DNA of 64,000 nt from Escherichia phage BEU5, in the sequence record OM632664.1, one strand, 5' to 3'. The position numbers and the translations under genes were made by a program. Below, piece after piece: positions 11,323 to 11,442 of this stretch. The notes below the pieces were generated by a model. That model was not told where the DNA came from and did no database searches. It was given only the letters and a program-made list of their open reading frames with translations. The first letter of the stretch is position 1, and every line of letters begins with the position of its first letter.

Positions 11323-11341
11323 ATTCGTAAGAACTCTTATT

Positions 11342-11415
11342 TTGGTTACCGCAAAAGAAGTGAAAAATGTTGTGGAAAACTACTTCCCAATTAGGTTCGA
11401 ATCCTAAACCAGAGT
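11342..11415 (+). ncRNA. tRNA-like element (T-arm TTAGG-TTCGAAT-CCTAA) enclosed by a 10-bp inverted repeat
   Basis: Canonical T-loop at 11396-11402; flanking AAGAACTCTT at 11328-11337 pairs with AAGAGTTCTT at 11416-11425; no encoded CCA. Confidence 0.25.
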
Positions 11416-11442
11416 AAGAGTTCTTTCGAATTGAAGATTTAC

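What the first reader, a model, noticed from the sequence alone, without database searches (positions are those of the whole stretch)
11328..11425. Second tRNA-like element: canonical T-loop enclosed by a 10-bp inverted repeat
A textbook T-arm at 11391-11407 is flanked by AAGAACTCTT and AAGAGTTCTT, forming a long outer stem, but there is no CCA or recognisable anticodon arm. This again suggests a processed small RNA or tRNA remnant rather than a standard tRNA.
Basis: seen in the sequence. Interest (0 to 1): 0.45.

Follow-up and report, generated by a model that had tools for sequence, protein, structure and literature searches.

The report
Conserved tRNA-like small RNA in phage N4
This is an unannotated, roughly 110-base tRNA-like RNA gene in the tRNA operon of a phage N4 relative, in which a real T-arm and a second hairpin are closed by a 26-bp helix; it is conserved in N4-like and T4-like phages and recalls the long-unexplained small stable RNAs of phage T4.

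Summary
The window is a coliphage N4 relative. The T-arm (11391-11407) and the 10-bp inverted repeat exist, and the repeat is the middle of a 26-bp helix (11321-11346 with 11408-11433). ARAGORN and Rfam call four normal tRNAs here but not this element.

Ten related phages carry it: N4-like phages of two subfamilies and two T4-like Yersinia phages. Their alignment shows:
- a nearly invariant 61-nt core (79-98% identity);
- a fast-diverging outer helix (38-92% identity) that stays paired, with 17 of 26 pairs changed on both sides;
- G.U pairs that fit only the + strand, the strand of the tRNAs.

It is therefore a selected, structured RNA, not a decayed tRNA, a mobile inverted-repeat element or a coding sequence.

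It lies flush between the CCA end of an upstream tRNA-like RNA and tRNA-Pro, inside a roughly 1.2-kb ORF-free, terminator-bounded operon. I infer it is cut out by host tRNA-processing enzymes, perhaps also RNase III, and acts as a stable mimic of the top half of a tRNA. Its target is unknown.

The closest analogue is T4 species 1 RNA (rnaC). Covariance models show only generic tRNA likeness, and phage TG1 carries both, so it is a separate family. It is not YrlA or tmRNA. Expression is untested.

The parts
11321..11346 (+). 5' strand of the 26-bp closing ('extended acceptor') helix. The first two bases overlap the CCA end (11320-11322) of the upstream tRNA-like RNA.
   Evidence: It pairs with 11408-11433. 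17 of 26 pairs have changes on both sides, and 91% of cells are paired.
11347..11356 (+). Unpaired 10-nt connector UACCGCAAAA in the place of a D arm. UACCG and AAA are invariant.
   Evidence: Alignments A1 and A2. Only 11352-11353 vary.
11357..11386 (+). Conserved hairpin. Helix 2 is 11357-11362 with 11381-11386. An invariant bulge AAAAAU (11363-11368) follows; together with the adjoining bases it forms the invariant run GUGAAAAAUGUU (11360-11371). Helix 3 is 11369-11371 with 11378-11380. The apical loop 11372-11377 is variable.
   Evidence: Helix 2 is 100% paired with one compensatory pair (A-U to G-C, 11358/11385). Helix 3 is 100% paired with one U-A to U.G change.
11387..11390 (+). 4-nt linker CCAA, in the variable-loop position.
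   Evidence: Alignment A2.
11391..11407 (+). Canonical T-arm: stem UUAGG/CCUAA and loop UUCGAAU.
   Evidence: The stem is invariant in all 12 sequences. The loop keeps U54 and A58 and varies at positions 56, 57 and 59.
11408..11433 (+). 3' strand of the closing helix, directly continuous with the T stem as in a tRNA acceptor.
11434..11441 (+). 8-nt spacer AAGAUUUA before the 5' end of tRNA-Pro (11442), which is the predicted RNase P site that would free the 3' side of the element.
   Evidence: The role in processing is inferred.

Best explanation
The element is a gene for a small, stable, tRNA-like non-coding RNA of about 110 nt. It is transcribed on the + strand as part of the phage's tRNA operon.

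Anatomy (shown). The RNA keeps the top half of a tRNA. A canonical T-arm stacks directly on an acceptor-type helix that is extended to 26 bp. The D arm is replaced by an invariant 10-nt connector. The anticodon arm is replaced by a conserved bulged hairpin that carries the invariant sequence GUGAAAAAUGUU.

Maturation (inferred).
- The 5' end is set by 3' maturation of the upstream tRNA-like RNA at its CCA (11320-11322).
- The 3' side is freed by RNase P cleavage at tRNA-Pro (11441|11442), followed by exonuclease trimming back to the helix.
- The long terminal duplex then protects both ends. It is also long enough to be an RNase III substrate.

Function (inferred, weakest step). The apical loop of the hairpin docks on the T-loop like a D-loop. 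The RNA then presents a tRNA elbow on a non-chargeable body and binds or titrates a factor that recognises tRNA shape. Candidates are a tRNA-processing or modification enzyme, the ribosome, or a host tRNA-directed nuclease. The payload is the invariant core; the helix is only a scaffold.
For: Identity and context.
- The window matches N4-group phages at 99-100%.
- Four bona fide tRNAs flank the element on the same strand.
- There is no ORF over 61 aa between 10700 and 12020, and a strong intrinsic terminator lies at 11965-11994.

Homologues.
- They are found only in phages: the N4 group, G7C, Moonfish, Pylas, KpCHEMY26, FSL SP-076, FSL SP-058, two uncultured contigs, and the T4-like Tegunavirus phages TG1 and phiR1-RT.
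- Model R1 scores them at 108-129 bits.

Structure.
- 94.4% of cells are paired, against 38-51% when the partners are slid.
- 18 pairs have double changes, and 0 of 500 shuffles reach the observed covariation.
- RNAalifold independently gives the same fold.

Selection on the payload. The core is 79-98% identical while the helix is 38-92% identical, yet the helix stays paired.

Strand.
- My tally from the pair tables gives 38 G.U cells against 7 A.C cells.
- The minus strand scores 34 bits against 125 bits for the plus strand.

Persistence. G7C keeps the element with no canonical tRNA in the 2.5-kb locus.

Elbow idea. The only variable core sites cluster in the apical loop and the T-loop. In TG1 and phiR1-RT a loop G-to-A change (11375) coincides with T-loop C56-to-U (11398), which would keep a G19:C56-type pair.

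Precedent. T4 rnaC has the same logic of an acceptor-like stem, a hairpin and a T-arm, with no CCA, and it lies in the tRNA cluster. It is expressed, and its function is still unknown (PMC3014915, PMC9697503, PMC12685909).
Against: - No expression, end-mapping or modification data were available, so every processing step is inference.
- The family is narrow: about six sequence types and three lineages. The T-arm and most of helix 2 never vary, so they are neither supported nor refuted by covariation.
- The proposed loop-loop pair rests on one evolutionary event.
- A fully paired 26-bp 'acceptor' is a poor RNase P substrate, so the tRNA-like top half may never be exposed.
- Distribution is patchy among close relatives: G7C and Moonfish have it, while Bp4, ECBP1 and PBM-3 lack it. 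The element is therefore dispensable.
- PBM-3 has the Pylas-type helix and 3' flank around an unrelated 44-nt interior. This suggests the helix may itself be a functional module.
- No complementary target is enriched in the window. That argues only against an antisense role.
Confidence: 0.55

Rival explanations
1. It is a cis-acting processing or stability hairpin. The 26-bp duplex is an RNase III site of the kind found in the phage T7 early region or the rRNA-operon stalks. It would separate or stabilise parts of the tRNA-operon transcript, and the interior would be incidental.
For: - The duplex is at least 22 bp and strongly maintained.
- The same operon has two more long inverted repeats, at 11091-11184 and 11521-11604, and a stem-closed conserved block at about 11613-11712.
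- PBM-3 carries the same helix and 3' flank as the Pylas-type copy but a different interior.
Against: The interior is the most conserved part, at 79-98% identity across phage families whose helices are only 38-46% identical. It also contains a canonical T-arm. An incidental interior should drift faster than the helix, not slower.
Confidence: 0.2
2. It is a decaying tRNA pseudogene, a functionless remnant of a tRNA gene in a fast-evolving tRNA island.
For: - N4-like tRNA islands are full of T-loop-bearing fragments. G7C has two more, PBM-3 has another tRNA-like RNA of about 125 nt, and N4 has the neighbour at 11257-11322.
- Distribution among relatives is patchy.
Against: - 17 of 26 helix pairs and one helix-2 pair changed on both sides with pairing retained.
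- The invariant 61-nt core is shared by the Schitoviridae and Straboviridae phages sampled here.
- Neutral decay would not produce either pattern.
Confidence: 0.07
3. It is a miniature inverted-repeat mobile element (MITE-like) with 26-27-bp terminal inverted repeats that inserted into the tRNA island.
For: - It has terminal inverted repeats and a size of about 113 bp.
- Presence and absence vary among close relatives.
- It occurs in unrelated phage families, and the same repeats occur with a different cargo in PBM-3.
Against: - There is one copy per genome.
- There is no flanking direct duplication: the flanks read ...GCCGGAAC and AAGATTTA....
- The arms evolve by compensatory changes with strand-specific G.U pairs. 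This is selection on RNA pairing, not on a transposase-binding sequence.
- There is no copy in 20,395 E. coli records or 72,556 plasmids.
Confidence: 0.05
4. It is a bacterial Y-RNA-like RNA (YrlA type). The long stem would bind a Ro60/Rsr protein and the tRNA-like module would tether an effector.
For: The overall look is a long terminal stem plus a tRNA-like module. Rfam gives a weak YrlA match of 17.3 bits over the T-arm.
Against: - 17.3 bits is far below the gathering score of 69, and a similar match falls on a real tRNA.
- YrlA has the order T, then acceptor hairpin, then D, with a GNCGAAN0-1G motif in the stem and a Ro60 gene next door (PMC4201824). Here the order is not permuted and the motif is absent.
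- The neighbouring genes are SSB, a RuvC-like protein, gp48, gp49 and vRNAP.
Confidence: 0.03
5. It is a short coding or tmRNA-like element. The conserved AAGGAG/AAGAAG, 7 nt and AUG in the hairpin would be a ribosome-binding site for a micro-ORF.
For: An SD-like sequence plus AUG at ideal spacing is invariant.
Against: - A 2-nt indel after codon 2 shifts the frame between the N4 and G7C/Pylas types. The ORFs are 16, 12 and 7 codons long with unrelated peptides (read).
- The SD-like bases are paired in helix 2, and the A-to-G change there is compensated by U-to-C. Selection is therefore on pairing.
- ARAGORN finds no tmRNA, and there is no chargeable CCA end.
Confidence: 0.03

Closest known systems
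Phage T4 species 1 RNA (rnaC), the small stable RNA of the T4 tRNA cluster
   Same: - It is encoded inside a phage tRNA gene cluster on the tRNA strand.
- It is about 110-140 nt and has a canonical GGUUCGAAUCC T-arm directly followed by the 3' strand of a helix formed by the two ends.
- It has a hairpin with a CUACUU 3' strand a few bases upstream of the T-arm, and no encoded CCA.
- It is conserved in many phages, and its function is unknown (PMC3014915).
   Different: - rnaC has a 7-bp acceptor-like stem with two U.U mismatches, against 26 bp here.
- rnaC has a large extra 5' hairpin where this RNA has a 10-nt connector, and a 6-nt CGUCAA loop instead of the bulged GUGAAAAAUGUU hairpin.
- Covariance models cross-match only at the level of a real tRNA: 15 bits one way, and 19 bits the other way against 17.7 bits for tRNA-Asn.
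- TG1 carries both RNAs about 1.5 kb apart.
Canonical tRNA, and D-armless tRNAs
   Same: The order is acceptor helix, connector, hairpin, 4-nt linker and T-arm. The T-loop keeps U54, A58 and the G53-C61 closing pair. It sits in a tRNA operon.
   Different: It has no D stem, no 7-nt anticodon loop, a 26-bp 'acceptor', and no discriminator or CCA. ARAGORN and Rfam RF00005 reject it even at E<=10.
Bacterial Y RNA YrlA (Rfam RF02553)
   Same: It is a non-coding RNA that combines a long terminal stem with a tRNA-like module containing a T-arm. YrlA is also found in some phages (PMC4201824).
   Different: The module order is not permuted, there is no D-arm, no GNCGAAN0-1G Ro60 motif and no Ro60 gene nearby. 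It scores 17.3 bits against a gathering score of 69.
RNase III processing hairpins of phage polycistronic transcripts (T7 R sites) and rRNA processing stalks
   Same: A long duplex formed by sequences that flank a functional RNA. The pairing is conserved while the sequence drifts.
   Different: Those hairpins enclose either nothing or an rRNA. Cleavage was not tested here. This duplex is continuous with a T-arm.

Membership tests
Canonical tRNA (Rfam RF00005) | Cloverleaf accepted by tRNA predictors or the covariance model | tested here: not met
   ARAGORN finds 4 tRNAs and none at 11321-11433. There is no RF00005 match there at gathering or at E<=10.
Canonical tRNA (Rfam RF00005) | T-arm with a 5-bp stem and a 7-nt UUCRANY loop | tested here: met
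   11391-11407 is UUAGG-UUCGAAU-CCUAA. It is invariant or conservatively varied in 12 homologues.
Canonical tRNA (Rfam RF00005) | 7-bp acceptor with discriminator and CCA, a D arm, and a 7-nt anticodon loop | tested here: not met
   The terminal helix is 26 bp, the connector is 10 nt and unpaired, the second hairpin has a 6-nt bulge and a 4-6-nt loop, and there is no CCA.
T4 species 1 RNA (rnaC) | Specific sequence and structure similarity to the rnaC family | tested here: not met
   rnaC model R2, built from 7 Tevenvirinae sequences, scores the element at 19.2 bits (E 0.01) but scores genuine tRNA-Asn at 17.7 bits. Element model R1 scores T4 rnaC at 15 bits, E 0.06-0.7.
T4 species 1 RNA (rnaC) | Orthologous position, one copy per tRNA cluster | tested here: not met
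   TG1 has rnaC at 65040-65166 and this element at 66629-66706. They are therefore distinct genes.
T4 species 1 RNA (rnaC) | Stable RNA released from tRNA precursors by host RNases | not testable with these tools
   Needs Northern blots or RNA-seq in RNase mutants.
YrlA / bacterial Y RNA (RF02553) | Covariance-model score at or above gathering | tested here: not met
   17.3 bits against a gathering score of 69, covering only the T-arm and running into tRNA-Pro.
YrlA / bacterial Y RNA (RF02553) | Ro60-binding motif GNCGAAN0-1G in the stem, and T then acceptor hairpin then D order (PMC4201824) | tested here: not met
   The motif is absent from the stem strands in all lineages, and the order is helix, connector, hairpin, T-arm, helix.
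YrlA / bacterial Y RNA (RF02553) | Encoded next to a Ro60/TROVE gene | tested here: not met
   The annotated neighbours within +/-1.5 kb in Jura and AlfredRasser are SSB, gp46/RuvC-like, hypothetical proteins, gp48, gp49 and vRNAP. The whole genome was not scanned for TROVE.
tmRNA | tRNA-like domain with a chargeable CCA end plus a tag ORF | tested here: not met
   ARAGORN finds no tmRNA, there is no CCA, and the micro-ORF frame is not conserved.
MITE-like inverted-repeat element | Terminal inverted repeats | tested here: met
   27-nt arms, 89% complementary.
MITE-like inverted-repeat element | Multiple copies, target-site duplication, and arms conserved in sequence rather than in pairing | tested here: not met
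   There is a single copy per genome, no flanking duplication, and 17 compensatory pairs with strand-specific G.U.
RNase III substrate hairpin | About two turns (at least 20 bp) of near-continuous dsRNA | tested here: met
   A 26-bp helix, or 31 bp with the stacked T stem, with one mismatch in N4.
RNase III substrate hairpin | Actual cleavage by RNase III | not testable with these tools
   Requires an in vitro assay or a comparison of rnc+ and rnc- cells.

The most novel reading that the evidence does not exclude
The RNA is a horizontally exchanged 'tRNA-elbow decoy' cassette. It would be a non-chargeable mimic of the top half of a tRNA. Unrelated enterobacterial phages (N4-like podoviruses and T4-like myoviruses) would swap it within their tRNA islands. 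Its job would be to titrate a host factor that recognises tRNA shape, for example a tRNA-directed defence nuclease or sensor, or RNase P or a modification enzyme. If so, it would give the first functional handle on the class of phage tRNA-cluster stable RNAs, which includes T4 rnaC and rnaD and has been unexplained since the 1970s.
Probability: 0.15. Interest if true: 0.75.

Novelty: new variant of a known kind. Interest (0 to 1): 0.45.

Why it matters
Phage tRNA clusters are now seen as counter-measures to host tRNA-cleaving defences. The non-tRNA stable RNAs embedded in them are still unexplained: T4 species 1 and 2 have been known for about 50 years without a function.

This element is a second, independent family with the same logic, and it sits in the model phage N4. 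Its anatomy is unusually clear, with an invariant payload, a covarying scaffold and defined flanking processing sites. It also has natural presence/absence variants among close relatives. That makes deletion, swap and pull-down experiments straightforward.

It also shows that the N4 'tRNA region' is really an ncRNA island of about 1.2 kb with several unannotated structured RNAs. Current annotations list only the tRNAs, at most one undetermined tRNA, and in some records a few short hypothetical ORFs.

Tried and rejected
1. Standard tRNA or tmRNA. ARAGORN and Rfam, at both gathering and E<=10 thresholds, were negative.
2. Homology to T4 rnaC. Reciprocal covariance models gave only tRNA-level scores, so it is rejected as the same family.
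3. YrlA. The Rfam score is far below threshold, and the defining motif, module order and gene neighbour are absent (PMC4201824).
4. Coding micro-ORF. The frame is not conserved.
5. Antisense regulator of phage genes. The complement of the invariant loop has 3 matches at up to 2 mismatches against 10.9 expected, and one of the three is the element itself.
6. Host or plasmid origin. There is no blastn match in the E. coli complete genomes or in PLSDB plasmids.
7. Wider family.
   - Three IMG/VR pattern scans, one metagenome scan and one GTDB-genome scan yielded only copies of the same phages plus two uncultured contigs.
   - Dozens of pattern hits were chance matches in coding DNA.
   - One possible distant relative, L044:3236-3330(-), shares TACCGC..AAAAG, GTGAAAAATGT and a T-arm. 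It scored only 10 bits and was left open.
8. Literature. No paper in the held library describes a tRNA-like or small RNA in N4-like phages.
9. The single-sequence MFE of the N4 core gives an N4-specific pairing (GUUG.UGGA with UUCCCAAU) that is not conserved in other phages. It was rejected in favour of the comparative fold.

Full report
**What the window is**

The 1.2 kb around the finding is 100% identical to Escherichia phages BEU13, BEU42, BEU44 and BEU51. It is 99.2% identical to coliphage N4 (EF056009, 32411-33612). The window is therefore an N4-group podovirus (Schitoviridae, Enquatrovirus).

ARAGORN and Rfam agree on four tRNA genes on the + strand:

| tRNA | Coordinates |
|---|---|
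| Asn | 10840-10914 |
| Ser | 10920-11009 |
| Thr | 11014-11089 |
| Pro | 11442-11518 |

Between about 10700 and 12020 there is no ORF longer than 61 codons. A strong intrinsic terminator lies at 11965-11994. The finding therefore sits in a non-coding transcription unit of about 1.2 kb, between tRNA-Thr and tRNA-Pro.

**Checking the observation**

The sequence confirms each item:
- The T-arm TTAGG-TTCGAAT-CCTAA is at 11391-11407.
- AAGAACTCTT is at 11329-11338.
- Its exact reverse complement AAGAGTTCTT is at 11416-11425.

The repeat finder reports arms 11321-11347 and 11407-11433, 27 nt and 89% complementary. With G.U pairs this is a 26-bp RNA helix that runs straight into the T stem.

None of this is chance. 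The T-loop motif occurs 6 times in the 64-kb window against 0.25 expected, and all six are on the + strand within this cluster. The fold has z = -6.06, or -5.96 for the presumed excised fragment 11323-11441. No tRNA, tmRNA or other Rfam family matches, even at E<=10. The only overlaps are sub-threshold matches to YrlA (17.3 bits) and to an S4 leader (18.3 bits).

**Relatives**

blastn finds the element in three groups:
- all N4-group phages, at 98-100%;
- five other Schitoviridae at about 83-88%: G7C (Gamaleyavirus), Moonfish (genus unassigned), Pylas and KpCHEMY26 (Pylasvirus), and FSL SP-076 and SP-058 (Ithacavirus);
- two T4-like myoviruses of Yersinia, TG1 and phiR1-RT (Straboviridae, Tegunavirus).

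None of these records annotates it. Pattern scans of IMG/VR, JGI metagenomes and GTDB genomes added only two uncultured phage contigs. E. coli genomes and plasmids have nothing. The family is real but narrow and confined to phages.

It is patchy among close relatives. G7C and Moonfish have it, while Bp4, ECBP1 and PBM-3 do not. In most phages it lies in a tRNA or ncRNA island. In G7C it persists although no canonical tRNA remains within the 2.5-kb locus.

**Structure from comparison**

Twelve distinct sequences align without ambiguity (A2). I proposed a structure, and RNAalifold independently predicted the same one:

| Part | Coordinates |
|---|---|
| Outer helix (26 bp) | 11321-11346 with 11408-11433 |
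| Unpaired connector UACCGCAAAA | 11347-11356 |
| Helix 2 | 11357-11362 with 11381-11386 |
| Invariant bulge AAAAAU (part of the invariant run GUGAAAAAUGUU, 11360-11371) | 11363-11368 |
| Helix 3 | 11369-11371 with 11378-11380 |
| Apical loop | 11372-11377 |
| Linker CCAA | 11387-11390 |
| T-arm | 11391-11407 |

On this structure 94.4% of cells are standard pairs, against 38-51% when the 3' partners are slid by 1-3 columns. Eighteen pairs show changes on both sides: 17 in the outer helix and one in helix 2 (A-U to G-C). None of 500 column shuffles reaches the observed covariation.

The T stem and most of helix 2 never vary, so covariation says nothing about them. The T-arm is nevertheless textbook.

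G.U pairs mark the strand. My tally of the pair tables gives 38 G.U cells against 7 A.C cells. The model scores the + strand at 125 bits and the - strand at 34 bits. The structure therefore belongs to a + strand RNA, the strand of the tRNAs. It is not a DNA cruciform or an antisense transcript.

**Pattern of constraint**

Between lineages the 61-nt core is 79-98% identical, whereas the helix is 38-92% identical. Between N4 and TG1 the figures are 87% and 46%. The payload is constrained in sequence and the helix only in pairing.

The few variable core positions cluster in the apical loop and in T-loop positions 56, 57 and 59, and they change together:

| Lineage | Apical loop | T-loop |
|---|---|---|
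| N4 group | GUGGAA | UUCGAAU |
| G7C, Moonfish and Pylas types | CGUA | UUCAACU |
| TG1 and phiR1-RT | GCGAAA | UUUGAAU |

In TG1 and phiR1-RT a loop G-to-A change (column 55, window 11375) coincides with T-loop C56-to-U (column 78, window 11398). This is what a G19:C56-type elbow pair would predict. It rests on one event and is only a lead.

**What it is not**

- *Not coding.* The invariant AAGGAG/AAGAAG, 7 nt and AUG looks like a ribosome-binding site. However, a 2-nt indel shifts the frame between lineages, and the 'ORFs' are 16, 12 and 7 codons. The SD-like bases are paired, with a compensated substitution.
- *Not a MITE.* There is a single copy per genome, no target duplication, and the arms show compensatory evolution.
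- *Not YrlA.* The defining Ro60 motif, the permuted T/acceptor/D order and an adjacent Ro60 gene are all absent (PMC4201824).
- *Not an antisense regulator of genes in this window*.

**Relation to T4 rnaC**

T4 species 1 RNA (rnaC, 139 nt) lies in the T4 tRNA cluster. It folds with its two ends paired in a 7-bp acceptor-like stem, a hairpin (GAGUAG...CUACUU), a short linker and a GGUUCGAAUCC T-arm, with no CCA. An alignment of seven Tevenvirinae homologues shows compensatory changes in that stem. The logic is the same as here.

Homology is not supported, for two reasons:
- My model of the element scores rnaC at 15 bits (E 0.06-0.7). An rnaC model scores the element at 19.2 bits but a genuine tRNA-Asn at 17.7 bits.
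- TG1 carries both RNAs about 1.5 kb apart.

I therefore file the element as the same kind of thing, a tRNA-cluster stable tRNA-like RNA, but as a separate family. The function of rnaC and rnaD remains unknown. This is stated for T4 in PMC3014915 and PMC9697503, where both are also shown to be expressed late, and again in 2025 in PMC12685909.

**How it most likely works**

*Shown.* This is a selected, + strand RNA structure with a tRNA top half on an extended terminal helix. It sits in an ORF-free, terminator-bounded tRNA operon. On its 5' side it is flush with the CCA end (11320-11322) of the neighbouring tRNA-like RNA, which is annotated tRNA-Undet in phages Jura, SPSP and AL25. Its 3' end lies 8 nt from the 5' end of tRNA-Pro.

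*Inferred from established E. coli tRNA-operon processing.* The relevant activities are RNase P at tRNA 5' ends, RNase E and exonucleases at 3' ends, and RNase III on duplexes of at least 20 bp. From memory, T4 species 1 arises from tRNA-containing precursors and is cleavable by RNase III in vitro. On that basis the segment is released as an RNA of about 110 nt, and its ends are buried in the duplex, which makes it stable. RNase III may trim the stalk.

*Weakest step.* The conserved hairpin docks on the T-loop to form a tRNA-like elbow. The RNA then binds or titrates a factor that reads tRNA shape. I put about 0.9 on 'conserved structured RNA gene', about 0.6 on the processing route, and about 0.35 on tRNA mimicry as the mode of action.

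**Main rival**

The helix may be the functional part, as a cis-acting RNase III or stability site. Three observations support this:
- The same operon has further long inverted repeats at 11091-11184 and 11521-11604.
- A block at about 11613-11712 has an interior almost identical to that of PBM-3 (a single substitution), but a closing stem that differs and still pairs: GUGGGAUG/CAUCCCAC against GAGGUG/CACCUC.
- PBM-3 carries the Pylas-type helix and 3' flank around an unrelated 44-nt interior.

These observations suggest a modular 'stalk plus cargo' design across the island. That is compatible with both readings. The much stronger conservation of the cargo argues that the cargo matters.

**Verdict**

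It is of moderate interest, it is experimentally very tractable, and expression data are the missing piece.

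Noticed in passing
window 11257-11322 (+): A neighbouring tRNA-like RNA with a 7-bp acceptor (UCCGGUG/CGCCGGA), discriminator A, encoded CCA and a T-arm (UCUGG-UUCGAGU-CCAGA). 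It has no D arm, and a hairpin with a 4-nt UGCA loop replaces the anticodon arm. ARAGORN and Rfam miss it, and phages Jura, SPSP and AL25 annotate it as 'tRNA-Undet'. It is conserved at 90-97% in many Gamaleyavirus phages that lack the element studied here.
   Followed up: partly
window 11190-11250 (+): A roughly 60-nt segment (ACAGTCCAGACAATATCTGCGTGACTTAAAAAACAGATGGAGCCAGGTGGAATCCCTGGCAAC) has 85-96% blastn matches in N4/G7C-like phages. It also matches unrelated 34-62-kb Klebsiella, Shigella and Salmonella phages such as SopranoGao, DS8 and Segz_1. This suggests a widely exchanged small module of unknown nature.
   Followed up: no
window 11091-11184 and 11521-11604 (+): Two more long inverted repeats lie in the same operon: 24-nt arms at 83% complementarity, and 13-nt arms at 100%. 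Each encloses 46-58 nt, with fold z-scores of -5.5 and -4.8. They have the same 'stalk plus cargo' look as the studied element and are unannotated.
   Followed up: partly
window about 11613-11712 (+); L002:1909-2010: A block of about 90 nt differs from that of Gamaleyavirus PBM-3 by a single substitution. It is closed by a stem that differs in sequence but still pairs: GUGGGAUG/CAUCCCAC in N4 and GAGGUG/CACCUC in PBM-3. It is probably another unannotated structured RNA. In AlfredRasser a short 'hypothetical protein' ORF is annotated over this stretch.
   Followed up: partly
L002 (phage PBM-3) 1161-1251 and 1633-1760: PBM-3 has a stem-closed element with the same outer helix and 3' flank (…CTCTTTGATAGTTTTCGTAAGCGA) as the Pylas/SP-076 copy of the studied RNA, but an unrelated 44-nt interior. 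It also has a separate tRNA-like RNA of about 125 nt with a 7-bp acceptor (UAUCAGU/ACUGAUA), A-CCA and a T-arm. The tRNA islands of N4-like phages appear to shuffle stalks and cargos.
   Followed up: partly
L006 (phage G7C) 1320-1430: G7C has no canonical tRNA in this locus. It does contain two further T-loop-bearing fragments (GGGGTTCGATTCCCTCC and GGTGGTTCGATTCCATCC) just downstream of its copy of the element.
   Followed up: no
L009 and L011 (FSL SP-076 and SP-058): The GenBank records annotate tRNA-Ser, Asn, Arg and Leu within these loci, overlapping a 609-bp CDS. Neither ARAGORN nor Rfam finds any tRNA there. The annotation may be misplaced.
   Followed up: no
L044:3236-3330 (-), IMG/VR contig 3300037488_000872: An uncultured viral contig has CTACCGCTAAAAG ... 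GGAGGTGAAAAATGT ... CCTACTT ... GAGGGTTCGATTCCCTC, which echoes the connector, the invariant loop and the T-arm of the element. It scores only about 10 bits with the model and has no tRNA nearby. It could be a distant relative or a coincidence.
   Followed up: partly
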